A DNA stretch of 64,000 nucleotides from a virus, in the IMG/VR virus record IMGVR_UViG_3300050120_000012, positions 7,813 through 71,812 of that record; one strand, 5' to 3'. Below are positions 3,426-41,832 of this stretch, piece after piece (position 1 is the first letter of the stretch; the number at the start of each line of letters is the position of its first letter). The notes under the pieces are model-generated. The model did no database searches. It saw nothing but the letters and a program-made list of their open reading frames with translations, and was not told the DNA's origin. The translations under genes and the position numbers were made by a program.

Positions 3426-3953
3426 TTATTTTGGACCCGGACTAGACCGCTCTTTTTCGATCTCCGCGTGGTAGTCGTGCTTCTTCAAACGCCCCTTGGC
3501 CGCGTTGGATAGAAGCTGTGTGAAGCCGTAGTCGTGCAGCACCGGCTTGCCGTCGATCAATCCCCAATTCTTCAAGTCCATGTCCACGATCCACGACGGG
3601 ACCTTCAGCGGCATATCCTTGATCTCCATCGGCTTTGTCTTGTGCTGGATCAGCACCATGCCGTTGTCAGAGATGTATTCGCACGGCGCGATCCACTTGG
3701 CCGCTTCCGGCTTATCTTTGATCGCCTGCCATAGCTCCCATTCCATCACGTTCTGGAATGTGTGGACGTTGGTCTCAAACTTGAACACCCATCGCGGGTT
3801 TTGATTGCAGCTATAGACGTGACGCGAGATGCCATAGCCGATCTTGTCACCAATGATGAGATGACAGAAGTCCATCGATAGTCGGCCTGTGAAGTAGTCT
3901 TCGATTTCCACGATTCTATCCCCGTTGGCTATCGATGTCCGAATCGCCGTCAT
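3426..3953 (-). CDS. small protein-kinase-like (Ser/Thr kinase fold) protein
   Basis: IGYGISRHVY Gly-loop, VFK lysine, NVME helix-C Glu, DMDLKNWG catalytic loop, HDYG (DFG-like). Confidence 0.7.
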   Translation of the reverse strand: MTAIRTSIANGDRIVEIEDYFTGRLSMDFCHLIIGDKIGYGISRHVYSCNQNPRWVFKFETNVHTFQNVMEWELWQAIKDKPEAAKWIAPCEYISDNGMVLIQHKTKPMEIKDMPLKVPSWIVDMDLKNWGLIDGKPVLHDYGFTQLLSNAAKGRLKKHDYHAEIEKERSSPGPK

Positions 3954-4197
3954 CGTCTTCATCCTCTGGCGAACATTCGTCGCAATAGAGTTCGCCGTTC
4001 TTATCTTTGCCGAGATCGGATACGTCGGACCACCAGCTACAGCCGGTGCAGCAAAACACGCGATCATCCAACTCTTGACAAAATGTTATGTCATTCTCTT
4101 CTCCGTCTTCACAGACTTCGTGGATCGACTTGCACGTTCCGACTAGATCGTTGGCGACGACTTCGGCTCGCGCCTTCATCAATTCAGAGCTTGGCAT
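3916..4197 (-). CDS. hypothetical Zn-finger protein
   Basis: CTGC...CDEC motifs, acidic. Confidence 0.7.
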   Translation of the reverse strand: MPSSELMKARAEVVANDLVGTCKSIHEVCEDGEENDITFCQELDDRVFCCTGCSWWSDVSDLGKDKNGELYCDECSPEDEDDDGDSDIDSQRG

Positions 4198-4414
4198 TCT
4201 CACACTCCAGACTCACAGGCGGATGGACTTCGCCCAAGATGCGCAGATGGACATAACCACCGGCCAAGAGACAGGCGATCTCATCGTCAGATGGACGCCA
4301 GCGCGTCACCATGCACGGAATGCCGCCAAGGTCTTCATCGCGAATGTGGAGTGGCTTATAGCCCTGATCCAGCCCGACGCAGCGCGTGTGATTGGGGATA
4401 CGTTCTGAGTTCAT
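4184..4414 (-). CDS. conserved phage hypothetical protein
   Basis: WRPSDDEIACLLAGGYVHL...HPPVSL, a pattern I recognise from phage proteins; ATGA coupling. Confidence 0.7.
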   Translation of the reverse strand: MNSERIPNHTRCVGLDQGYKPLHIRDEDLGGIPCMVTRWRPSDDEIACLLAGGYVHLRILGEVHPPVSLECENAKL

Positions 4415-4875
4415 CTGGAGACTACCCATGTCCGCCGTGCGAGGCCACAGGGGCGTAGCTCATAGCGTTTGACGGCCTCCAGCTTATCATCGTCGAGCTT
4501 CACTTGCCAGCTATCGTACACCGGGTTCCACGGCTCTTGCCCTTGGTGCGTCACGGCGCTGGAGATCACGCGCCCACGCACGTCTCTATCGACGGTCATC
4601 CCCATGCCATCGATATAGAGGAAGATCACGACATCACCTTGGATCGGTGTGTGATTGGATTGACCATTCAGATCACCAATCATGTAGTCCATCGTGATCT
4701 GTTTGCCAGTCATGTCATCCACAGCCCACATAGGCTGATCTTCATATAGATGCTCTTCGTTCGACCCATCCCACATTTTCTCCCACTTGCGATGAGTGTA
4801 CCACAGGAAGCATGTGATAAGCAGACCGACGAAGTAGAAGACGATGATCTGTAGCCAGTGTGGGGTGTGTATCAT
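4411..4875 (-). CDS. membrane-anchored hypothetical protein
   Basis: N-terminal TM segment; ATGA overlaps at both ends. Confidence 0.7.
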   Translation of the reverse strand: MIHTPHWLQIIVFYFVGLLITCFLWYTHRKWEKMWDGSNEEHLYEDQPMWAVDDMTGKQITMDYMIGDLNGQSNHTPIQGDVVIFLYIDGMGMTVDRDVRGRVISSAVTHQGQEPWNPVYDSWQVKLDDDKLEAVKRYELRPCGLARRTWVVSR

Positions 4876-5225
4876 CGTGATCCTCTTTGATTGACGCTAA
4901 GAAACATCGCGTGCATTGGACCACCGTCCTGTGATATGCTTAGCGGGTATGTGGACGCTCTTTCCATATCCACATATGACTTCTCCCCATGACATCTTGT
5001 GCCAAATCCGACTTCGATGCACCGGAAGAATGGATTTTCTGTGCTATGGTCACAGATGATCGTTGGCTTGGTGTAATGCTGGTATTGGCTCCAGCGCCAT
5101 TCCTTTAGATTGTTGAACTTCCAACGTGTCCATGTCGCACGTTGAAAGCATGTGCCGGGGCTCTTGTGGTTCAGCCTGCGTTGCTTGCGCTTGGCGTTGT
5201 TATTAGACTTGCGGATGCTACCCAT
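4872..5225 (-). CDS. hypothetical basic protein
   Basis: ORF overlapping both neighbours. Confidence 0.6.
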   Translation of the reverse strand: MGSIRKSNNNAKRKQRRLNHKSPGTCFQRATWTRWKFNNLKEWRWSQYQHYTKPTIICDHSTENPFFRCIEVGFGTRCHGEKSYVDMERASTYPLSISQDGGPMHAMFLSVNQRGSR

Positions 5226-10449: not shown

Positions 10450-11087
10450 ATGATGTCCCAATCCAAAGAAGGATCGTCGAAGTCCGGTTCGGGTTCTTCA
10501 GTCTTACGGATCGGATCGCCGAACCCGTCTGTCTCGCCGGTCCACATAGACTCGACGGTCTTACGGAAGAGTTCGATGCGGTCTTTGTCAGGCTGGCGTA
10601 GTTCCGCTCGCGCTTGGATTGATCCGGGGGGTGGTAAAGAGGGGGTGCGCTCTAACCACTCCACGACAGTTTCAGTGTCGAGCGCGAGATCGACGATGCC
10701 GGTACGCGGACGTATGGTGAGGAAGTCTAAATCCTTCAGTGGCTTCATCCACCATCGCTCAGTCTTAGCGGGCATGGTCAAAAGACCGACGATGATCTCT
10801 TCGCCTAAACCGTCCAAGAAACGATCTGGACTGAACTCGCCGGTCGATTTGATGAGTGAATGACGCAAGGCTGCACCGACGACAGTCAGGCTATACATGC
10901 CATCTAGCTCGCGCCGCATGAGGCCATTCTTGACGCATAATTGTAGGGCTCGGGAGCGATTGACTGTGACAGCCGACTCCGATTTGCGCCCGCCTGACTT
11001 GGGCCGGTACATGGGGGATGAACCCATCTCATCCACAAGCTCAGCAAAGCCGGGATAGATTCTATGGGGCAGAGATCGGGGTTCCAT
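10446..11087 (-). CDS. hypothetical protein, possible wHTH, ending EPDFDDPSLDWDII
   Basis: First gene of the leftward operon; LQLCVKNGLM..DGMYSLTVVG looks like a wing. Confidence 0.75.
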   Translation of the reverse strand: MEPRSLPHRIYPGFAELVDEMGSSPMYRPKSGGRKSESAVTVNRSRALQLCVKNGLMRRELDGMYSLTVVGAALRHSLIKSTGEFSPDRFLDGLGEEIIVGLLTMPAKTERWWMKPLKDLDFLTIRPRTGIVDLALDTETVVEWLERTPSLPPPGSIQARAELRQPDKDRIELFRKTVESMWTGETDGFGDPIRKTEEPEPDFDDPSLDWDII

Positions 11088-11575
11088 GAAGCGTGAATCC
11101 TGTGAAGAATGTATGCTTAGAGGGTATTTTATCCTCTGTCAAATGGGCTAAAACCTTGGGGACAAATCCGGCGGAGTTTCACACGGCATACATATTCGGT
11201 TTATGTCAGCATATACAGTATGCGAGCATATGCAATGTCCTACATATTTGGTATTATACTGTTTTGGGGTACATTTTCATCATTCATCTCAGCGCATCAA
11301 ATCAACTCACTTACAATGTGTACCTTTTAAGTGTGCTAACGGCCTAATTGAACACTCTTATCTACTAGATAAATAGATAAAAGGATAAAAACAGCCCTCG
11401 ATTTGATCGGAAATGGCCCTAATCGTCCATCTGCATGGGCTCTCCCTTGGCCGTTTCAGGAGCCAACCGTTGCAGATCGACTTTTCGGATCGGGTTTCAT
11501 TTTGAAGAGTGGAATCGCACTAAGGAATGGCTCAAAAGTGGATAAAAACAGCACAGGATGGACTGCGCAGCCTCA

Positions 11576-11802
11576 TTAACCTTAACGGACGATTAACCTT
11601 AATGCCATGTTAAGGTTGACGCTTCATTAGGGTTAAGGGTCGGTCGATAGACATGAACAACACGTTAAGGTTAATTCTGGATAAATCTTACGATGGTGTT
11701 AAGGTTGATGGATCATTAAGGTTAATTCTGGATAAAACCTAACGAGCGTTAACCTTGATGAAAATACACCTTAAGAAAGTTCGATTGTTAGTGACTTGTT
11801 AG
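11576..11802. promoter_or_regulatory. tandem array of CtrA-box-like sites (TTAA-N7-TTAA, 17 bp period)
   Basis: Perfect boxes at 11582-11596 and 11599-11613; degenerate boxes at 11616, 11654, 11671, 11688, 11705, 11722 and 11788. Confidence 0.7.
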
Positions 11803-11819
11803 GAAAGACGCTATAGATT
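11788..11819 (+). promoter_or_regulatory. putative promoter with a CtrA-like box at the -35 position and GCTATAGA -10 element
   Basis: TTAG-N7-TTAG at 11788-11802, then GCTATAGA at 11810-11817, similar to the Caulobacter sigma70 -10 element. Confidence 0.45.
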
Positions 11820-11853
11820 GACGCCATAGGGGAACGACGCCCGCCGCGATCTT

Positions 11854-11930
11854 TGACATTGTGAATCCCCGTCTCGCGCTATAAAGGCGCGACTGATGAG
11901 CCTCAGTTAAGGCGAAACGGGAATATGTCA
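11854..11930 (+). ncRNA. type III hammerhead ribozyme
   Basis: GUC cleavage triplet 11871-73; stem I 11874-80/11886-92; core CUGAUGA 11893-99; stem II GCCU/AGGC 11900-03/11910-13; GAAA 11914-17; stem III CCCGU/ACGGG 11868-72/11917-21. Confidence 0.88.
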
Positions 11931-12088
11931 TGTTCGGCAAAACTAACATGCAAACGAAAATGGCGACCTTCAATCAAAGGTCGCTGAATGTGTCGCCAGC
12001 GTGGAACGGCATTTATGAACTGCGCAACTATCGCCGCTCGCAATCGCTGGCGGGTCGCCTCGCGGCTCTTCTCGGAAAGGTCGCCTAA
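11930..12088 (+). CDS. small hypothetical protein (52 aa, MFGKTNMQTK...)
   Basis: Hand-translated; GGGA upstream; TAATG coupling to the next gene. Confidence 0.6.
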   Translation: MFGKTNMQTKMATFNQRSLNVSPAWNGIYELRNYRRSQSLAGRLAALLGKVA

Positions 12089-12279
12089 TGGCTCGCACCT
12101 TTCATCACGACATGATGGCGGCGCTAGACGCCGAAACCTACAGCGGTCGGACGACTCCCGACAAAACGCATTACGCCATGCGCCGCGCTCTTCGTAAGGC
12201 AAACATGCGCGGTTCTGCGATCATGAATGACAAACAACTCGCAATGGCTACCTTGGCCGAATTGGCGGAGTGGAAATAA
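12088..12279 (+). CDS. small hypothetical protein
   Basis: TAATG coupling at both ends. Confidence 0.7.
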   Translation: MARTFHHDMMAALDAETYSGRTTPDKTHYAMRRALRKANMRGSAIMNDKQLAMATLAELAEWK

Positions 12280-12743
12280 TGGGCTATTTCGGACGCGCTG
12301 GCGACGCTGGACGCCTTACCAAAGACGATATGACTCCGGTGAACGCGGTTAGCTCGCGCAAGGCTGGACATAATCGCATCACTTGGACAAATGATCGCGG
12401 CTTCAAGCATTTTCGCTTGATACAAACCGACGTTGTTTCGACTACGCCGGACGGTCAAGAAATCATGATCGATACGAACGGCTTTGATAGTCGCACGACT
12501 TCCACCGCGATCATGCAAGCCGTCGATTTGTTCTACTTCGGACGCATGAGCGTGGCTAATGGTTCGTGGTATATCGGCAATGTGTGGATGCGGTCTAAGA
12601 CGCGCGAAACAAACACGCTCTTATTGATCCGCTACAATGCCGGAACTGCGACCTATGAACGTGAGGAAATCGCGTTCGATGAAAAGATCGAAGTGAAGCG
12701 CGACCCGAAAACGGGCGATCTCACTTGGAAATCTGATCTCTAA
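12279..12743 (+). CDS. hypothetical protein
   Basis: ORF from MGYFGRAG with GGAG upstream. Confidence 0.75.
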   Translation: MGYFGRAGDAGRLTKDDMTPVNAVSSRKAGHNRITWTNDRGFKHFRLIQTDVVSTTPDGQEIMIDTNGFDSRTTSTAIMQAVDLFYFGRMSVANGSWYIGNVWMRSKTRETNTLLLIRYNAGTATYEREEIAFDEKIEVKRDPKTGDLTWKSDL

Positions 12744-12786
12744 ACTTAAACCGCGCGAGATAGCGCAAACCTGAAAGACTAAACAA

Positions 12787-13245
12787 ATGACCTATTACGT
12801 TTTCGACAATGGCGAAGCGATGGAAGCCAGCCATGAAATCAAAGACGCGAAAGCCGTTTCTAAAGCGGTCTATCTCAAGGCTCGCGCTGAATATGCCAAA
12901 AAGCGGCTTCTGACGATGATCTCGCCCAAAGACACGATTTATTGCGTCCTGAAGCATCGCGCGCCGTCCGGCATGTCGCGGAGTATCGAGTTCCTGATAA
13001 CGTGGTCTAAGGACGGCAAAACCGGCATACAGTCGATCACTCATTATATGGCTGATCTTGGCTGGAAATTCGATCAAACACACGGCGGTTTGAGGATCGG
13101 CGGTTGTGGGATGGATGCGGGTTTCGGCGCGGTCTATAGCTTGGGTCGCATCTTGTGGACGAACGGTACAGACAAGCCGCACGGCGTGCGCAATGGCGAA
13201 CCTGATAGCGATGGCGGTTACGCTATCGGTCATAGCTGGCTTTAA
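12787..13245 (+). CDS. conserved phage hypothetical protein
   Basis: DTIYCVLKH..PSGMSRSI...GGCGMDAGF..VYSLGR pattern. Confidence 0.8.
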   Translation: MTYYVFDNGEAMEASHEIKDAKAVSKAVYLKARAEYAKKRLLTMISPKDTIYCVLKHRAPSGMSRSIEFLITWSKDGKTGIQSITHYMADLGWKFDQTHGGLRIGGCGMDAGFGAVYSLGRILWTNGTDKPHGVRNGEPDSDGGYAIGHSWL

Positions 13246-13259
13246 TCGGAGTTCATGCA

Positions 13260-13670
13260 ATGACAATCAAAGACGAACTAATCAGCGCCGAAACCGCAAC
13301 GCAAATCCGCGCCAATGTTGACACGTTCAACGCTTGGCTTGGTGATCGCCGCTCATGGCGACCTGAAGAAGTTCCTTCGCATATCGTCCAAGTGACGAAC
13401 GATCAAAAAGGCGAACTAGAACGTTTTGAGACGTTCCGCGATATGCCGTCCAAGTTGTTCGTATATGTGAAGATATATGGTGCGAACGATGTAACTGCGA
13501 CCGTCTGGACTGGTCAACCGCTTGGACATGGCAAAGCGTCAACTGCATATCGCAGCAACTTCGGAGATCGTCGCCGCTCGATAACCATTACGATCAACGG
13601 CCAAAAGTACCACGGAACGGCATACGTTGACGCTGGCGACTATGCGCGATTAACGAAGTCCAAGCGATGA
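13260..13670 (+). CDS. conserved phage hypothetical protein
   Basis: GGAG RBS; TVWTG..LG...RSNFG..R...Y.G pattern. Confidence 0.75.
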   Translation: MTIKDELISAETATQIRANVDTFNAWLGDRRSWRPEEVPSHIVQVTNDQKGELERFETFRDMPSKLFVYVKIYGANDVTATVWTGQPLGHGKASTAYRSNFGDRRRSITITINGQKYHGTAYVDAGDYARLTKSKR

Positions 13671-13864
13671 GCGAACGCTTTAACAGGTGCGCAGCACGAA
13701 CAAGCGTCATCATCCATCATAATCAATCAACGGTTAAGCATCTTCGATGGCATGTGCTGATGCACAGACTAGACCATATGATCGTTAACGCATTTATACT
13801 GTCGTTAGTCTTTCATCATCACAGACACCATCAACACAACGGCCATTAGACAAGTAAAACGAAG

Positions 13865-13925
13865 TCAGTACCTCGCCCCTATGCTTTGAAGTTTGTGTAT
13901 AGGGGCGAGGATGACTGATTTATTA
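13865..13925 (+). terminator. strong hairpin closing the small-gene cassette
   Basis: CCTCGCCCCTAT (13871-82) pairs with ATAGGGGCGAGG (13899-910), with flanking TCAGT/ACTGA, followed by TTTATT. Confidence 0.5.
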
Positions 13926-14224
13926 CTGTCTCTTTCCCCCAGACCCCCGTTAACCATTTTGCTACGGCGGGTATCTCAACGGTCGCGCCGATCCAATTTC
14001 CCAAATAGTGCATCTCAACGTAGTCCATCGAAAAATGGATAAAAAAGTAGCCCAATACAGCGTTTTTATCCAGAAATCCTCAAATCAGAGCCCGATCAGA
14101 GGAAAACTCGATAAAAACGTCATCGGAGGCCACTTCCCCACTCAGCACACCATAAAATGCGACAAATCGGAAAATTCCAGAAAAATTCTGGAAAAGTGCA
14201 TCCCAACCGGCTATCTCATTAACC

Positions 14225-15010
14225 ATGGCGCTTGGACCCGCACAAAAAGCCGAACTGATCGACGCGATTTACGTCAAGCTAGGCGTTCCTGCGGCTGCGG
14301 AACACTGTCATCTGAAGCTCCGCGACGTTCTGACGGAGATGGATGACGATGAGGACTTCGGAGCCGCCGTAGAGCAAGCTATGGCTCACCTGACACCCTT
14401 GGCCGAACAAGAGCTATTCCGCCGGGCAGTCCATGGGACGGAGAATTACGTCGTCAATCAGGGCCGCGTGGTCTTCCTCACCAATTCAGACGGCATATCG
14501 AAGCCTCTGATAGAGAAGAAGTATAGCGATGGCCTCCTGACGAAGTTCCTAGAGGCACGCAAGAAAGACGTTTTTGGAGCCAAAGTCGAAGTTGCTCACA
14601 AGCATAGCGGCTTTATTGCCGTCCCGGTCATGTCCATGGAGGAAATCCAGAACATGCTCGACTCTCCGGGAGATGAAGTGACCTTTATCGACGCCAGCTA
14701 TCAAGAGATCGTCGGTCAACGCCCCTTGGCCGTTGCAGATGCCGATGTTGAGGCCGATTGGCCGCCTCAGAGCGCGGATAGCGAGCCTCGGGCCTCACAA
14801 GCTGTTATCCAAGAGCGTGTCCGCGCTCTGACGACGCCCCGGCAAGAGCCCGAACTGATCGACTTCGACCCTCGGGACGACGCCATGGAGTTCGTCATGG
14901 ATCGGCTGGAGGATGAGCCGGACTTTGAGTTCGTCACGGCTGAGATCGAAGACACCGCCGAAGAGCTTAAGACGTTCGACGATGACGATGAACCGGACTT
15001 CGGCGTCTAA
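14225..15010 (+). CDS. terS: terminase small subunit (putative) with long acidic C-terminal extension
   Basis: Directly before terL; E.ELFRRAV.G...KYSD.LL..FLEA pattern. Confidence 0.7.
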   Translation: MALGPAQKAELIDAIYVKLGVPAAAEHCHLKLRDVLTEMDDDEDFGAAVEQAMAHLTPLAEQELFRRAVHGTENYVVNQGRVVFLTNSDGISKPLIEKKYSDGLLTKFLEARKKDVFGAKVEVAHKHSGFIAVPVMSMEEIQNMLDSPGDEVTFIDASYQEIVGQRPLAVADADVEADWPPQSADSEPRASQAVIQERVRALTTPRQEPELIDFDPRDDAMEFVMDRLEDEPDFEFVTAEIEDTAEELKTFDDDDEPDFGV

Positions 15011-37209: not shown

Positions 37210-40200
37210 ATGTTCGCGCTATTCCTTATCACCATATTCTTCTCTGTCTTGACGAGTTTGCTTGCGCCGACGCAAAAGGCTCAACGTGGCAATCTGAAGG
37301 ACTTCAGCTTTCCTCAAGTGCAGGACGGTGATCCTATTGCCTATGCAGTCGGTCGCGTAAAGATCGCCGGTACTGGCCTGACGTGGTATGGTGATTTCCA
37401 AACTAAGGCGATTAAGAAGTCCACCGGCCTCTTCACGACTTCGACCGTGGGCTATAAGTATTATCTCGGATGGCAGTTGGTTATCGCCATTGGTCCGAAC
37501 GTCATGCTTCGGAACCTGTGGTTCGGAACGCCGCAAGGCCAGACGAATACCGCTAACGGTTTCGAAGATGACACCTACATCGAAGAGAACAACCCGAACT
37601 TCACCAATGCCAATGATACGAAGATTCCTGTCCCTGTATGGGGTGTGGGGATTGCTTCTTATCCCGGCGGCCCGATCATCACTGAACCGACCGGGACTGC
37701 GATCTTGGACGTTTCCAATGTCAAGGCGTTCGGCGGTGATAACGGCGGCGGTGGTTTTGATCTGTCTGTAGAGTTCTATGGTGGTGAGAACTCACAAACC
37801 TCCAGCGTCTATCTCCAAAGCCAAGTCAATCAAGCTTTCGTTCCACCTTATCGCGGCGTCTCCCATCTGATCTGTCATGGCTACATCGGCAACAGCGCCA
37901 GCCTCCAAAACATGACGGTTGAGATCGACCGTATCTATGATCCGCTAGAGCTTGGCTCCCAAGCTATCATTGGTCAAGAGGGTGACGCCAATCCGGCCAA
38001 CGTGATCTATGAGCTTCTGACGAACAACTTTGGTGCGGCCTCTATTCCGCTCCCTCGGATGAACTCGGCGTCATTTGTCACCGCTGGCGGCATCCTGTGG
38101 ACTGAAGACGAAGGTATTTCCATCGCTTTTGGATCGTCTCCCACGGCGGTCTCCAATGTGCTGAAGGACATTCTGCGCCAGATCGACGCCACGTTGTACG
38201 AAGACCCGACCGATGGTCAAATCTATCTGAAGCTGATCCGTGCCGACTACGTTCTCGCTGATCTTCCTGTTATCGATCAGACGAACATCTTGTCCGTCCA
38301 GAGCTTCACCACGAATATGTGGTCCGATACGAAGAACCGCATTCGGGTGTCCTATGAGGACCGCTCGAAATACTATGATGATCGTGTCGCCGTTGGTGAA
38401 GACATGGCGAACGTGGCCTTCCAAGGTGGACAGGTCAAAGCGATCACTGTTCAGCATCCTTATATCAAGCGGGCTGAACATGCGAACCGCAAGGTCGCTC
38501 AAGAGATGGCGATCTATACCACGCCGCTGTCAAAGCTTACCGTCACAACGCAGCGGTTCACGACTTCGCTTCGCCCCGGCTCCGTCATTAACATGGTCTA
38601 TCCGGCGTACAAGATCGCCTCGATTGCCTATCGTGTGACGAAGGTCTCCATGGGTGATCTGACGAACAACCGTCTGTCACTGGAGCTTGTCCAAGATAAG
38701 TTCGCCACAGTGCAGTTCGTGTTCGCTGCGCCTGTGAACTTCTGGCAAAAGCCCAATACCTCTGCGGTTAACATCGTGACCTATAATGCTGAAGAAGCTC
38801 CCCGGTTCTTCAACGCACTTCAGCCTACTATTGTGAATGTTGATAACTCGCGCCTTTTCGTTCAGCCGATCCAGCCGAACATTGCGCAGAGCGGCTATAA
38901 CATTTGGGCTAAGATCACAACTGAGACGGACTATGCTCAGATTGACTATGAACAGAGCTACGCCACACTTGGGACGCTCCAGAACAACCTTGCTATGGAG
39001 CTTCTGTCCACCGTCACGCTCGCGTCGATCAGCGACATCGATTCTTTGGCCGTCGCCAATCAGGCGCAGATCAGTTCCGGCCTGAATCTGATCCAGATCG
39101 ACGATGAGATCATGGCCTATGAGAGCTATGTCCTCGCCGCCGGGCTCTACACCCTAGAGAACGTCCACAGGGGCTTGCTGGACACCGTACCGGCCACTCA
39201 CGCCGCCAGCGCCAACGTGGTCTTCCTGACGCCCGACACGGTGGGTACGCGCGAGTTCGCCGGGACTGAGGCCGTGGACGTTCTCATGGGCTCCTACAGC
39301 TTCAGTGACGAACAGACTCAGGACGAAGCGACTCACGTTGGCGTCCAACTCATGCAGCGCCCACAACGGCCATATCCTCCAGCGGACGTGATGATCGACG
39401 GGGTTCTATATAACCCGAACGTGGATAACACGTCCGGCTGCACAGTCACGTTCAAACGCCGGTCTAGGTTGAACCTTGGCGTGCTTTATCAGACGGACGC
39501 CGATGAAGCCCCCGAAGCCGGGACGACGTACATTGCTCGCGTCGGCATCCCCGGTCATACGGTTGACCATGCACTCGGAACGGCGGACACCGGCACGTTC
39601 ACCTTCGACTTGGCCGGTTCCAATGTGGTTCAGATCATCGCGGTTCTGGACGGGCTCGAATCTCAGCCGGTTCAATGGGACACGACTGTCGCTCATGCGG
39701 CGGGTGTCTCCGTTGGTGTGGCGCTTGCCGCTGCGGCGACGACGGTTGCGATCACACCGGAAGAACTCCTATCCCATGACGCCGGGCTGGCGACCGCGAC
39801 GACTTCGCCCATAGTTGCCATCGCCACCATCGCGGGTGCTGTTGCGACCGGCGACCTTGGAACGCCTGCCACGACTGTTGCGATCACCCCGACGACTACC
39901 GGCGGTGGGGGTGTCATTGAAACGACGCCTCATAGGTATTGGGGTATCCGTTTGAACACTCCGCAAACGAGTGGGACGAACTTCGCCTTTGGTGAACTGG
40001 AGATGTACGAACACGATCTCTCTAGTGGAAATGCTGCACTCGGTATCACCGCATTCGCTGATGGCTCTTCCTTCACTGGAGCCGATCAAGGCTTGACGCA
40101 TGTGTTTGACGGTAAAGTTGGTGCAAACGTCGGCAATGTCGGGATAGGGTCTTCGGCGGCTGGTTACAAAGTATGGGGCGACTTTGTTACTCCCATTGCT

Positions 40201-41832
40201 ATTGACTGTATTCGACTTGCATGTGTCGAAAGCCAGTACGCAATATCTATGCCTTCAGACTTCGATGTCATCTCTTCAGATGATGCCATGACGTGGAATA
40301 CTGAATGGTCTGCAACCCCGGCAACTTGGGGTGAGCCTGCGTTCGAATATCGGGCCTTCATGCGTCCCGGCAAATCACTTGCCTACAGCGGCTCGCCGTG
40401 GGGCGCACATGCCTATTGGCGGATGGTTATGGTGGATAGCCAAGACACGTCAGGGTGGGGTGCTGCGGAGATTTCCATGCGCGCAACGGCGGGTGGATCA
40501 AACCAATGCACCGGGGGAACGGCGACCACGAACAACGCCTATGCCACGCCAACGTATGATGCGCCCATGGCCTTTGACGGAAACCCTGCAACGCTATGGG
40601 GCTCAAATGGTCATGGAGAAGTTGGGGATGAGGGCTTTGGTGGCGGCGGGGGCCAAGTGTGGATTCAATATGAGTTCGCTGCACCTGTCTCTGTCGGGGA
40701 GATTGCGATCACCGCCCGCAATGATAGCTTCTTCGGTCAATCCCCTTATACCTTCCTTGTGGAATACTCGGACGATGGGACACTGTTCAAAGAGGCTTGG
40801 ACTGCATACGCCGGTTCCCTGACGCCGTATAGCTCGGGAAGCACTGTCGTCTTTACCGATCCAAACTTGATCTCTGACTCGCTCACGGCGCTTTCCGATG
40901 GTGAAGGTGGTCTCTTGGACGATGGTACGGGTCAAAGCCTTGAGAGCCTTTTGGATGAATCAACGGTACTTGTTCCGCTTGGTCCGCGTGTCTTGACTTC
41001 GGCTATTGTCCCGGAAGTGACGATCTCCGGTGAACCGACGTTTGAAGGTGTTCTCGACGGACGTACAGATGTTGCAGCGGCGTATGGCTTCCGTCGTATG
41101 GCGACAAGTTATACTGGCCCTCTGATTAAGATCAGAAACCAAGACACACTTTCTAGTATGGACATCGGTTATATCGACAATGGCGAACTCGATCAGGCTA
41201 CTATGCTTGCATTCCTTGGCTCGGCAAATGGTACGATCTCCACTTGGTACGATCAATCCGGCAACGGACGGGATATAGGCGGCGGTCTTCCTTCTCTCGT
41301 AAGTAGCGGCACGGTTGATAGTGTGAATGGCTACCCTGCGGCGGCCTTCAACGCTACACCGCAATCGAACTCGGGGTGGCAACTTACAGACTCCGCCTTC
41401 TCAGCTATCATTGCGGGTCAAAGGACTAGCGGTGGATATAATGCGTTTGTATCTCAGTCGATCTCCAGCCATTCGTTGTCTTTAGGTATCGATCCTTCAG
41501 GCAAATTGGATATGATGCGTAATGGCGTTTCAGACGTTAATGGACAATCGACTTCGGATGACTTCTGTATTGTGTCTTGGGTTGGATCGGCTGGAATGTC
41601 GGCCTTCGTTCCGTTCAATGTCACAGGGTACTTGAATAGTGATGGTGGAACTTCCTTCACCTTGACTTATGGTGAAAGCCTCCTGAATGGCGTCTCTATT
41701 GGTGGTGCGTATGCCGGTGGTGATACAGTCACAGGGATCATCGCTGAAGTCGTTCTACTGAATGACGCGATTGCTGACGTGTATCGCGAAAACATTGAAA
41801 GCAACATGAAGACCCGGTTTGGTGTCTCTTAA
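37210..41832 (+). CDS. central tail tip/host-specificity protein with C-terminal carbohydrate-binding modules
   Basis: N-terminal GDPI....G...WYGD and GTA-type tail domains, then two discoidin-like repeats and a ConA/arabinofuranosidase-B-like domain. Confidence 0.85.
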   Translation: MFALFLITIFFSVLTSLLAPTQKAQRGNLKDFSFPQVQDGDPIAYAVGRVKIAGTGLTWYGDFQTKAIKKSTGLFTTSTVGYKYYLGWQLVIAIGPNVMLRNLWFGTPQGQTNTANGFEDDTYIEENNPNFTNANDTKIPVPVWGVGIASYPGGPIITEPTGTAILDVSNVKAFGGDNGGGGFDLSVEFYGGENSQTSSVYLQSQVNQAFVPPYRGVSHLICHGYIGNSASLQNMTVEIDRIYDPLELGSQAIIGQEGDANPANVIYELLTNNFGAASIPLPRMNSASFVTAGGILWTEDEGISIAFGSSPTAVSNVLKDILRQIDATLYEDPTDGQIYLKLIRADYVLADLPVIDQTNILSVQSFTTNMWSDTKNRIRVSYEDRSKYYDDRVAVGEDMANVAFQGGQVKAITVQHPYIKRAEHANRKVAQEMAIYTTPLSKLTVTTQRFTTSLRPGSVINMVYPAYKIASIAYRVTKVSMGDLTNNRLSLELVQDKFATVQFVFAAPVNFWQKPNTSAVNIVTYNAEEAPRFFNALQPTIVNVDNSRLFVQPIQPNIAQSGYNIWAKITTETDYAQIDYEQSYATLGTLQNNLAMELLSTVTLASISDIDSLAVANQAQISSGLNLIQIDDEIMAYESYVLAAGLYTLENVHRGLLDTVPATHAASANVVFLTPDTVGTREFAGTEAVDVLMGSYSFSDEQTQDEATHVGVQLMQRPQRPYPPADVMIDGVLYNPNVDNTSGCTVTFKRRSRLNLGVLYQTDADEAPEAGTTYIARVGIPGHTVDHALGTADTGTFTFDLAGSNVVQIIAVLDGLESQPVQWDTTVAHAAGVSVGVALAAAATTVAITPEELLSHDAGLATATTSPIVAIATIAGAVATGDLGTPATTVAITPTTTGGGGVIETTPHRYWGIRLNTPQTSGTNFAFGELEMYEHDLSSGNAALGITAFADGSSFTGADQGLTHVFDGKVGANVGNVGIGSSAAGYKVWGDFVTPIAIDCIRLACVESQYAISMPSDFDVISSDDAMTWNTEWSATPATWGEPAFEYRAFMRPGKSLAYSGSPWGAHAYWRMVMVDSQDTSGWGAAEISMRATAGGSNQCTGGTATTNNAYATPTYDAPMAFDGNPATLWGSNGHGEVGDEGFGGGGGQVWIQYEFAAPVSVGEIAITARNDSFFGQSPYTFLVEYSDDGTLFKEAWTAYAGSLTPYSSGSTVVFTDPNLISDSLTALSDGEGGLLDDGTGQSLESLLDESTVLVPLGPRVLTSAIVPEVTISGEPTFEGVLDGRTDVAAAYGFRRMATSYTGPLIKIRNQDTLSSMDIGYIDNGELDQATMLAFLGSANGTISTWYDQSGNGRDIGGGLPSLVSSGTVDSVNGYPAAAFNATPQSNSGWQLTDSAFSAIIAGQRTSGGYNAFVSQSISSHSLSLGIDPSGKLDMMRNGVSDVNGQSTSDDFCIVSWVGSAGMSAFVPFNVTGYLNSDGGTSFTLTYGESLLNGVSIGGAYAGGDTVTGIIAEVVLLNDAIADVYRENIESNMKTRFGVS

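What the first reader, a model, noticed from the sequence alone, without database searches (positions are those of the whole stretch)
11854..11932. Type III hammerhead ribozyme whose stem III covers the RBS and start codon of the first cassette gene
Seen: every core element is present in order. These are CCCGUC (11868-73, cleavage expected after C11873), stem I UCGCGCU/GGCGCGA, CUGAUGA, stem II GCCU/AGGC with loop CAGUUA, GAAA, and ACGGG closing stem III. A U at the base of loop I and an A ending loop II fit the U-A loop-loop contact of natural hammerheads. Stem III extends through UGACAU (11854-59) pairing with AUGUCA (11925-30). Its 3' strand contains the likely SD (GGGA, 11919-22) and the A of the AUG at 11930. 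Established: hammerheads self-cleave after NUH and have been reported in bacterial and phage DNA, mostly without a known function. Inference: cleavage releases the 5' strand, unmasks translation of the coupled genes at 11930-12743 and gives the mRNA a 5'-OH end, making the ribozyme a timer or switch for early expression.
Basis: partly seen in the sequence, partly recalled or inferred. Interest (0 to 1): 0.9.

Follow-up and report, generated by a model that had tools for sequence, protein, structure and literature searches.

The report
Hammerhead ribozyme heading a phage operon
A complete self-cutting hammerhead RNA sits in the leader of an uncultured phage's rightward operon, with the first gene's ribosome-binding site built into its last helix; such ribozymes are already known in phages, and whether cutting controls translation here is untested.

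Summary
The motif is real. Window 11866-11923 (+) is a complete type III hammerhead with every core base and all three helices in place. Rfam RF00008 matches it end to end at 44.6 bits, E 1e-8. That is below the 48.5-bit cut-off, but so were 19 of 19 RF00008 matches in other viral and metagenome contigs. A model built from 67 viral type III hammerheads scores it 56.9 bits, E 1.8e-13.

It is the only hammerhead in a 71.8-kb viral record. It lies in the leader of a plus-strand gene block that runs into the terminase genes, so 'early' is unsupported.

The 3' strand of stem III does hold the only Shine-Dalgarno-like run, 8 nt before a coding-like 52-codon ORF. This is closer than in any of 33 or 73 comparison hammerheads.

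The outer UGACAU/AUGUCA helix is not beyond chance. Folding predicts only about 2 kcal/mol of unmasking.

No relatives, variants or RNA data exist.

Verdict: a new member of a known kind, in a rare but recurrent layout. This scan has noted similar hammerheads on other DNA.

The parts
11866..11923 (+). Complete type III hammerhead ribozyme (extent of the Rfam RF00008 match)
   Evidence: 44.6 bits, E 1e-8, model 1-54 of 54. R1 56.9 bits, E 1.8e-13 at 11867-11922.
11854..11859 (+). UGACAU, 5' strand of an outer helix beyond stem III
   Evidence: Complementary to 11925-30 and kept in the MFE fold. Not beyond chance.
11865..11871 (+). 5' strand of stem III (AUCCCCG: 4 G-C pairs, a C/A mismatch, then U-A and A-U). 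It is released with the 5' fragment after cleavage.
   Evidence: by eye. The alignment marks the mismatch.
11872..11873 (+). U16.1 and C17. The scissile bond is expected between 11873 and 11874.
   Evidence: Position in the RF00008 and R1 alignments. Cleavage itself was not tested.
11874..11892 (+). Stem I hairpin (7 bp, loop AUAAA). It would be the 5' terminus (5'-OH) of the cleaved mRNA.
   Evidence: stem I = 7 bp.
11893..11899 (+). Catalytic core strand CUGAUGA
11900..11913 (+). Stem II hairpin (GCCU/AGGC, loop CAGUUA)
   Evidence: stem II = 4 bp.
11914..11917 (+). Core GAAA (G12 A13 A14 A15.1)
11918..11924 (+). 3' strand of stem III (CGGGAAU). It holds the only SD-like purine run (GGGAA), 7-8 nt before the ATG.
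   Evidence: There is no SD-like run before the internal ATGs at 11948 and 11960 (read).
11925..11930 (+). AUGUCA, 3' strand of the outer helix. Its last base is the A of the start codon.
   Evidence: Not beyond chance.
11930..12088 (+). ORF1, 52 codons, no homologue. It is the first gene after the ribozyme.
   Evidence: Coding score 0.37 bits per codon in frame; 0 of 6000 off-frame windows score as high. The same 52-aa protein is on record and has no relatives.
12088..12279 (+). ORF2, 63 codons. It is joined to ORF1 by a TAATG stop/start overlap.
   Evidence: 0.28 bits per codon in frame.
12279..12743 (+). ORF3, 154 codons from the ATG. It is joined to ORF2 by a TAATG overlap and has no homologue.
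   Evidence: (only itself among 5.8 billion proteins).

Best explanation
This is a genuine type III hammerhead ribozyme, transcribed as part of the 5' leader of the phage's rightward operon. That operon holds five or six small genes, then terminase and other long plus-strand ORFs.

Proposed mechanism:
1. The RNA folds as it is made and cuts itself between C11873 and U11874.
2. The 5' piece carries away the 5' strand of stem III (an anti-SD-like UCCCCG) and the variable leader.
3. The mRNA that remains starts with a 5'-OH directly on the GC-rich stem I hairpin, followed by the stem II hairpin.
4. Five bases later come a now unpaired GGGAA and the AUG of ORF1. ORF2 and ORF3 are translationally coupled to ORF1.

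I read it as a constitutive self-processing leader. It gives the operon a defined, structured 5' end and modestly helps ribosome loading, like the engineered RiboJ insulator. I do not read it as a timed switch.

Shown: the motif, its statistical support, its position and the SD overlap. Inferred: transcription, cleavage, fragment release, and any effect on mRNA stability or translation.

My odds: real self-cleaving hammerhead about 0.85. The processing and insulating role as described about 0.5.
For: Motif and statistics:
- All core bases are present, and the three pairs next to the core are standard.
- RF00008 matches the full model, E 1e-8.
- The sub-threshold score is normal for this setting. 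0 of 19 RF00008 matches in 16 other viral or metagenome loci reach 48.5 bits (range 30.2-47.5).
- R1, built from 67 viral hammerheads, gives 56.9 bits, E 1.8e-13. Stems I and II of those 67 covary: 271 cells change on both sides against 72.8 +/- 9.9 in shuffles, with 0 of 500 shuffles as high.

Position:
- The ribozyme is co-oriented with more than 30 kb of + strand ORFs, and all ORFs upstream of 11087 are on the - strand.
- ORF1 is coding-like and 11930 is its first possible start.
- Viral type III hammerheads generally sit just before a gene start. 74 of 79 have an ORF start within 150 nt (median 23 nt), and 33 of 35 in a second sample (median 22 nt).
- The same tight layout recurs in metagenome contigs. 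In L224 the ATG is 9 nt after stem III and GGGAGG lies wholly inside a 7-bp stem III. In the L216 group the ATG is 6 nt after stem III, and in L213 it is 11 nt after.

Engineering precedent:
- RiboJ is a hammerhead plus a hairpin that normalises the 5'-UTR, and uncleaved mRNA is modelled as decaying faster (PMC7536230, passages).
- With the SD sequestered in a ribozyme stem, active twister constructs gave 5- to about 100-fold more reporter than inactive ones (PMC5052635, passages).
Against: - No cleavage, transcript or 5'-end data exist.
- No + strand sigma-70-type promoter was found between 11087 and 11930. That scan does not cover other promoter types.
- There are no relatives or sequence variants, so there is no covariation at this locus.
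- The predicted unmasking is small: the opening energy of -18..+12 goes from 14.0 to 12.0 kcal/mol, and of the SD alone from 3.4 to 1.6.
- The AUG is predicted to be paired in the cleaved RNA (unpaired probability 0.009).
- The 5' fragment is predicted to bind the 3' strand at -12.4 kcal/mol, so release may be slow.
- Unlike 70 of 79 sampled viral hammerheads, this one has no co-oriented gene upstream and no adjacent 5' hairpin. The usual 'cut a polycistronic RNA' reading does not transfer directly.
- The MFE fold pairs part of the core with the stem III strand (-27.5 against -25.4 kcal/mol for the canonical fold).
Confidence: 0.55

Rival explanations
1. The extended stem III (the CGGG strand plus AUGUCA) keeps the SD and AUG masked until self-cleavage releases the 5' strand. 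Translation of ORF1-3 therefore depends strongly on cleavage, and the ribozyme acts as a switch or delay element.
For: - The SD-like run and the A of the AUG lie in the 3' strands of stem III and the outer helix, and the MFE keeps both helices.
- The start is nearer the ribozyme than in any of 33 hammerheads of an unbiased-stem sample (minimum 12 nt against 8 nt here). It is also the smallest of 74 in the first sample.
- L224 buries a full GGGAGG in stem III.
- Engineered ribozymes built this way do switch expression (PMC5052635 passages).
Against: - The outer helix is no better than 24.7% of genomic flank pairs.
- The predicted gain in accessibility is only about 2 kcal/mol, and the AUG re-pairs downstream after cleavage.
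- Nothing indicates that the cleavage rate is regulated. No aptamer-like insert was found and there is no other Rfam match in 10900-14300.
- The operon leads into packaging genes, not early genes.
Confidence: 0.2
2. The ribozyme only trims RNA. It severs the operon mRNA from whatever + strand transcription starts in the 840-nt repeat-rich region upstream. Alternatively, it marks the mRNA for decay through its 5'-OH end, as the glmS ribozyme does in bacteria with RNase J. Either way it has no positive effect on translation.
For: - The literature's general proposal for bacterial and phage hammerheads is transcript processing, with different stabilities of the products (PMC3088659 passages; PMC6765202 passages).
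- A long non-coding region with a TTAAGGTTAA repeat array lies just upstream.
Against: - There is no co-oriented upstream gene to be separated. The upstream + strand ORFs score as non-coding, at 0.04, -0.51 and -0.10 bits per codon.
- A decay-promoting element at the head of the operon that includes the terminase genes would be costly unless it were regulated.
- The host and its RNases are unknown.
Confidence: 0.2
3. A hammerhead-like sequence that does not cleave in vivo. It could be a chance match, a decayed copy, or a misfolded form.
For: - It is a single copy with no conservation data.
- It scores below the Rfam gathering cut-off.
- The MFE is a partly misfolded form.
Against: - E-values are 1e-8 to 1.8e-13.
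- Every core base and every core-adjacent pair meets the acceptance rules quoted in PMC3088659 (passage).
- The stem I U and the loop II A match positions conserved in viral hammerheads.
- The sequence is identical in a contig of a second sequencing run (X2, 11844-11994, 0 differences).
Confidence: 0.1

Closest known systems
Type III hammerhead ribozyme (Rfam RF00008, clan CL00010)
   Same: It has the same core (CUGAUGA, GAAA, a GUC cleavage triplet) and the same topology: stems I and II are capped and stem III is open. The match covers the full model.
   Different: It scores 3.9 bits under the curated cut-off, as did all 19 other viral or metagenome RF00008 matches I scored. It is DNA-encoded in a tailed-phage contig, not in a viroid-like circular RNA.
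Hammerheads of phages and prophages (Perreault et al. 2011, PMC3088659; passages read)
   Same: It is a hammerhead in a phage genome, co-oriented with the genes and directly before a gene start. Its function is likewise unknown, with mRNA processing proposed.
   Different: Those are described as often multiple and as flanking single genes. In my samples 70 of 79 follow a co-oriented gene and a hairpin. This one is single in its record. It lies in an operon leader after a divergent non-coding region, lacks the 5' hairpin, and has the SD inside stem III.
RiboJ and related ribozyme insulators (engineered; PMC7536230 passages)
   Same: A hammerhead sits between the promoter region and the RBS, and its cleavage removes the variable 5' leader. 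This is the closest analogue for how the element would work.
   Different: RiboJ is synthetic. It carries an added 23-nt hairpin, which the passages read say was added to stabilise ribozyme folding. Here the SD is part of stem III itself.
Engineered ribozyme switches with the SD sequestered in a ribozyme stem (PMC5052635 passages; it cites Wieland and Hartig 2008, which I did not read)
   Same: The SD is paired inside a ribozyme helix and freed by cleavage.
   Different: Those are designed and ligand-controlled. No ligand-sensing part is seen here, and the effect is untested.
Hammerheads in 5'-UTRs of RNA viruses of fungi and plants that are needed for translation (PMC13725137; abstract and passages)
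   Same: A self-cleaving ribozyme in a viral 5' leader is linked to translation initiation.
   Different: Those are mostly type I, in eukaryotic RNA viruses, and act through cap-independent initiation. This is a different mechanism and host domain.

Membership tests
Hammerhead ribozyme, type III (RF00008) | Conserved catalytic core: C3-A9 CUGAUGA, G12 A13 A14, the A15.1-U16.1 pair, and H17 (not G) at the cleavage site | tested here: met
   CUGAUGA is 11893-99 and GAAA is 11914-17. U11872 pairs with A11917 and C11873 is H17.
Hammerhead ribozyme, type III (RF00008) | Three helices around the core, with stems I and II closed by loops and stem III open (type III topology) | tested here: met
   Stem I is 7 bp, stem II 4 bp and stem III 4 bp plus extensions. 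R1 and RF00008 align all three helices.
Hammerhead ribozyme, type III (RF00008) | Standard pairs directly next to the core (10.1-11.1, 1.1-2.1, 15.1-16.1). This is the acceptance rule quoted in PMC3088659. | tested here: met
   G11900-C11913, U11874-A11892 and A11917-U11872.
Hammerhead ribozyme, type III (RF00008) | Score at or above Rfam's curated gathering cut-off (48.5 bits) | tested here: not met
   The score is 44.6 bits. For calibration, 0 of 19 RF00008 matches in 16 other viral or metagenome loci reach the cut-off. The E-value is still 1e-8.
Hammerhead ribozyme, type III (RF00008) | Compensatory changes in the helices among homologues at the same locus | not testable with these tools
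   No relatives exist. The 26-mer has 0 hits in viral contigs. ORF1 and ORF3 have no homologues. The only other cover of the ribozyme is identical. Covariation was shown only for the family at large.
Hammerhead ribozyme, type III (RF00008) | Loop I-loop II tertiary contact needed for fast cleavage at low Mg2+ | tested here: inconclusive
   The window has the stem I U (62 of 67 in viral hammerheads) and an A ending loop II (52 of 67). A 3-bp UAA/UUA loop-loop pairing is possible by eye. No 3D test was done.
Hammerhead ribozyme, type III (RF00008) | Site-specific self-cleavage | not testable with these tools
   No RNA run holds the region, and only DNA contigs could be laid.
Clustered gene-flanking hammerheads of phages (Perreault 2011) | Several hammerheads close together that flank single genes or short gene blocks | tested here: not met
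   The 71.8-kb record has one RF00008 match, no RF00163 match, and only an E 0.85 match for RF02276.
Clustered gene-flanking hammerheads of phages (Perreault 2011) | Intercistronic position after a co-oriented gene | tested here: not met
   No co-oriented open frame ends within 200 nt upstream. 70 of 79 sampled viral hammerheads have one.
Ribozyme-gated ribosome-binding site (engineered class) | SD paired within a ribozyme helix whose other strand leaves on cleavage | tested here: met
   The GGGAA run (11919-23) lies within the 3' strand of stem III (11918-24), and its partner 11865-71 is on the 5' cleavage fragment.
Ribozyme-gated ribosome-binding site (engineered class) | Expression depends on cleavage | tested here: inconclusive
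   Only a folding proxy was available. The opening energy falls by about 2 kcal/mol and the AUG re-pairs in the cleaved RNA. A reporter test is needed.

The most novel reading that the evidence does not exclude
A natural ribozyme-gated ribosome-binding site. The 5' strand of stem III acts as a built-in anti-SD that only self-cleavage can remove, so translation of ORF1-3 requires catalysis. The same design recurs rarely but independently in other environmental hammerheads (L224, the L216 group, L213). If so, this would be a natural counterpart of engineered ribozyme switches, and one concrete function for some 'orphan' phage hammerheads.
Probability: 0.22. Interest if true: 0.55.

Novelty: new member of a known kind. 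Interest (0 to 1): 0.3.

Why it matters
The biological role of DNA-encoded hammerheads in bacteria and phages is still described as unknown (PMC6765202 passages; PMC13725137 passages).

This copy is a compact test case. It is a single ribozyme in an operon leader, and the first gene's SD lies in the helix that cleavage opens. One reporter pair, with an active and a dead ribozyme, would show whether cleavage helps translation or stability.

By itself it is one more phage hammerhead, without conservation or expression data.

Tried and rejected
Searches for relatives that would give covariation at this locus all came back empty:
- An exact 26-mer of the ribozyme had 0 hits in viral contigs.
- ORF3 used as a locus query found 0 relatives.
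- ORF3 and ORF1 searched against 5.8 billion proteins found only themselves.
- 80 TerL-related loci (44% identity or less) held no type III hammerhead by my regex.
- 50 of the 83 related records were scanned whole with RF00008, chosen as the longest. 2 had weak matches (20-28 bits), and none was like this one.
- ORF4 relatives L082-L084 were among those 50 and had no match.

Sequencing runs: no RNA holder was listed. Contigs of three DNA runs were laid. Run X2 covers 11844-11994 with no differences, and X1 and X3 do not cover the ribozyme. There are therefore no variants and no expression data.

Other checks:
- The Rfam scan of the weak-hit loci returned 0 matches at E <= 0.01.
- I considered a minus-strand gene over the element and rejected it. 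The reverse frames of the ORF1 region score -0.19 to -0.80 bits per codon.
- I considered upstream + strand ORFs (11093-11347, 11203-11376, 11403-11579) as genes that the ribozyme would separate from ORF1. They score as non-coding.
- I considered the outer helix as a designed mask and rejected it as unproven.

Rows dropped:
- One search listed only 80 of at least 119 matching stretches, and I analysed only those 80.
- In some searches I dropped 4 of 90 pattern matches whose stems did not form (L093, L118, L130, L147), and duplicates.
- In one search I kept 35 distinct type III folds of 87 raw matches. The rest lacked stems I or III in type III register, or were duplicates.
- My filters require stems. 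The pairing percentages are therefore partly built in, and stem III was fixed by the pattern.
- R1 was built from sequences found with a pattern taken from this ribozyme's core and stem III, so its score is not fully independent.
- Supplements of the papers were not seen. Perreault 2011's supplementary figures and lists may hold similar leader or SD-overlapping cases.

Full report
OBSERVATION

- Stem III: CCCG 11868-71 pairs with CGGG 11918-21. It is extended by a C/A mismatch and two A-U pairs (11865-66 with 11923-24).
- U11872 pairs with A11917. C11873 is the cleavage-site base.
- Stem I: 11874-80 with 11886-92 (7 bp, loop AUAAA).
- CUGAUGA is 11893-99.
- Stem II: 11900-03 with 11910-13 (loop CAGUUA).
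- GAAA is 11914-17.
- The outer inverted repeat is UGACAU 11854-59 with AUGUCA 11925-30.

IS IT MORE THAN CHANCE?

At Rfam's gathering thresholds the 64-kb window gives no match at all. With E-value reporting, RF00008 (Hammerhead_3) matches 11866-11923 over model positions 1-54 of 54 at 44.6 bits against a cut-off of 48.5.
- E is 1e-8 in a 401-nt search.
- E is 8.8e-8 in 3.4 kb.
- E is 4.5e-10 for this family alone over the whole record.

I calibrated the shortfall. In 16 other viral or metagenome loci that hold type III hammerheads, all 19 RF00008 matches score 30.2-47.5 bits and none reaches the cut-off. So 44.6 bits is at the upper end for this setting.

I then aligned 67 distinct type III hammerheads from viral contigs.
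- Stems I and II covary strongly. 92.5% of cells are paired, against 28-46% when partners are slid.
- 271 cells change on both sides, against 72.8 +/- 9.9 in shuffles, with 0 of 500 shuffles as high.
- All 7 stem I pairs and 3 of 4 stem II pairs show double changes.
- The model built from this alignment (R1) finds the window element at 56.9 bits, E 1.8e-13. The next best match is 10.2 bits.

Caveats: the 67 were found with a pattern that fixes the core and three stem III pairs of this very ribozyme. I also filtered for formed stems, which dropped 4 of 90 matches. The model is therefore not fully independent.

WHERE IT SITS

The window is part of a 71.8-kb viral record, linear and about 82% complete.
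- All ORFs of 100 codons or more that look like genes before 11087 are on the - strand.
- 11087-11929 has no coding-like ORF.
- From 11930 a + strand block begins. It holds ORF1 (52 codons), ORF2 (63), ORF3 (154 from its ATG), a phrog_12365 protein, and two more small ORFs.
- Then come the terminase small subunit (phrog_4044, E 1e-15), the terminase large subunit (phrog_979, E 1.7e-30), and a long run of + strand ORFs that I did not annotate. Pfam found nothing.
- No + strand terminator-like site lies between the ribozyme and the terminase genes.

The ribozyme therefore heads the transcription unit that runs into the packaging genes, which is not evidently an early cassette.

It is the only hammerhead in the record. 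RF00163 has no match and RF02276 only a match at E 0.85. No other Rfam family matches 10900-14300 apart from generic hairpin noise at 13847-13932.

IS ORF1 REAL, AND IS 11930 ITS START?

- ORF1 scores 0.37 bits per codon with a codon model trained on 11 long genes of the window. None of 6000 off-frame 52-codon windows scores as high. It sits at the 20th percentile of in-frame windows.
- The frame is closed by a TGA at 11897-99, and 11930 is the first ATG/GTG/TTG after it.
- The same 52-residue protein is on record in the protein collection.
- ORF1/ORF2 and ORF2/ORF3 overlap as TAATG.
- The only SD-like run before 11930 is GGGAA at 11919-23, inside the 3' strand of stem III. The internal ATGs at 11948 and 11960 have none.

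HOW UNUSUAL IS THAT?

First sample (same stem III core, 80 of at least 119 stretches listed):
- 79 non-redundant hammerheads, including the window. 74 have an ORF start within 150 nt of the end of CGAAACGG.
- The median is 23 nt. The window's 9 nt is the smallest.
- 70 of 79 follow a co-oriented open frame that ends 5-64 nt upstream. The median 40-nt upstream fold is -15.0 kcal/mol, because a GC-rich hairpin abuts stem III.
- The window has neither (no upstream frame; -8.3 kcal/mol).

Second sample (no constraint on the stem III sequence):
- 35 distinct type III folds of 87 raw matches. 33 have a start within 150 nt of the stem III end.
- The minimum is 12 nt and the median 22 nt. The window's distance is 8 nt.

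Metagenome contigs with the window's 4-bp stem III (15 loci):
- L224 has the ATG 9 nt after stem III and a 102-codon ORF. Its GGGAGG is fully paired in a 7-bp stem III.
- The near-identical L216/L222/L223/L225 group has the ATG 6 nt after stem III and a 70-codon ORF.
- L213 has the ATG 11 nt after stem III and an 82-codon ORF.
- That pattern selects a G-rich, SD-like strand, so only the start-codon distance is informative there.

The layout is therefore rare but recurrent.

DOES THE STRUCTURE MASK TRANSLATION?

- The outer helix is weak evidence. The 25-nt flanks pair at -13.3 kcal/mol. That beats 98.4% of mononucleotide shuffles. However, 24.7% of 3000 genomic flank pairs at the same spacing do as well, and 11.1% of 20000 have a Watson-Crick match of 6 bp or more.
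- The canonical fold with the outer helix is -25.4 kcal/mol. The MFE is -27.5 kcal/mol and pairs part of the core with the stem III strand.
- The energy to open -18..+12 around the AUG is 14.0 kcal/mol for an RNA that starts at 11824, and 12.0 for the cleaved RNA that starts at 11874. For the SD alone the values are 3.4 and 1.6.
- In the cleaved RNA the AUG is predicted to pair with AACAUG at 11945-50.
- The 5' fragment is predicted to bind at -12.4 kcal/mol.

Nearest-neighbour folding ignores the ribozyme's tertiary fold. The most it shows is that the predicted effect of cleavage on ribosome access is modest.

MECHANISM I THINK MOST LIKELY

This is a constitutive self-processing leader.
- Shown: a statistically solid, complete hammerhead, co-oriented with and directly abutting the first gene of the operon, with the SD in its stem III.
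- Inferred from established hammerhead chemistry (recalled): cleavage after C17 gives a 2',3'-cyclic phosphate on the leader piece and a 5'-OH on the mRNA.
- Inferred: the mRNA then begins with a flush GC-rich hairpin and a 5'-OH. From recalled work on E. coli mRNA decay, such ends are poor entry points for 5'-end-dependent decay. The SD also loses its intramolecular partner.

This is how the engineered RiboJ insulator is described. It is a hammerhead plus a hairpin that normalises the 5'-UTR, and uncleaved mRNA is modelled as decaying twice as fast (PMC7536230, passages). Engineered ribozymes with a sequestered SD give 5- to about 100-fold activation (PMC5052635, passages).

I give about 0.85 to 'real, self-cleaving', about 0.5 to this functional reading, and about 0.2 to the stronger switch model.

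WHAT IS KNOWN

- Hundreds of bacterial hammerheads, many in prophages and often flanking genes, were reported in 2011, with transcript processing proposed and function unknown (PMC3088659, passages).
- A 2019 review still calls the purpose undefined (PMC6765202, passages).
- A 2026 paper shows that hammerheads in the 5'-UTRs of eukaryotic RNA viruses are needed for translation (PMC13725137, abstract and passages).
- My four literature searches that found papers did not turn up a natural bacterial or phage hammerhead shown to gate an SD. This is not proof of absence, and supplements were closed.
- This scan's own notes list 338 findings with these words, including hammerheads that overlap ribosome-binding sites in other phages. 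These are unchecked AI notes. I did not use them as evidence.

VERDICT

This is a new member of a known kind, in an uncommon leader and SD-overlapping layout. There is no conservation or expression evidence.

Noticed in passing
window 11576-11775: An array of TTAAGGTTAA / TTAACCTTAA decamers in both orientations. There are five 26-nt copies at spacings of 17, 34 and 55 nt, and perfect 13-nt inverted repeats 11575-87/11663-75 and 11592-604/11714-26. The array lies in the 840-nt non-coding region, about 90 nt upstream of the ribozyme. It could be an origin or a regulator-binding array.
   Followed up: partly
G010 (record of L016) 38148-40243, and G024 (record of L047) 3848-4943: Two phage records with TerL about 37-41% identical to the window's carry clusters of hammerhead-like motifs, 5 and 2 respectively. 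By eye these have type I topology: stem I open, with CUGAUGA, a stem II hairpin, GAAAC, a stem III hairpin, then GUC. They match RF00008 at only 20-28 bits and RF00163 at 19-21 bits, below both cut-offs.
   Followed up: partly
L093-L172 (IMG/VR loci): A recurrent module appears in viral contigs: gene stop, a GC-rich hairpin that abuts stem III, a type III hammerhead (7-bp stem I, 4-bp stem II), then an ORF start a median 23 nt later, often preceded by an SD-like run. 70 of 79 have the co-oriented upstream frame and 74 of 79 the downstream start.
   Followed up: partly
L224 509-563 (- strand of the locus): A type III hammerhead whose 7-bp stem III pairs a full GGGAGG with a CCUCCC-like 5' strand. 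The ATG of a 102-codon ORF lies 9 nt further on. This is the clearest case of an SD inside stem III that I found.
   Followed up: partly
L157 378-543 (-): A RAGATH-14-like RNA (94.8 bits, below its 149.1-bit cut-off, E 2.1e-15) lies directly beside a type III hammerhead at 298-356.
   Followed up: no
window 13847-13932: A long hairpin lies between the small-gene cassette and the terminase small subunit gene. It matches only generic hairpin families at E 0.07-0.18 and was not called a terminator on the + strand.
   Followed up: no
window 11400-13400: The same sequence occurs without differences in contigs of two further sequencing runs labelled peat metagenome (X2, X3). A contig of X1 joins 12207 to 12744 with 67 other letters in between, at under 90% likeness. 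This is probably a different, related element.
   Followed up: no
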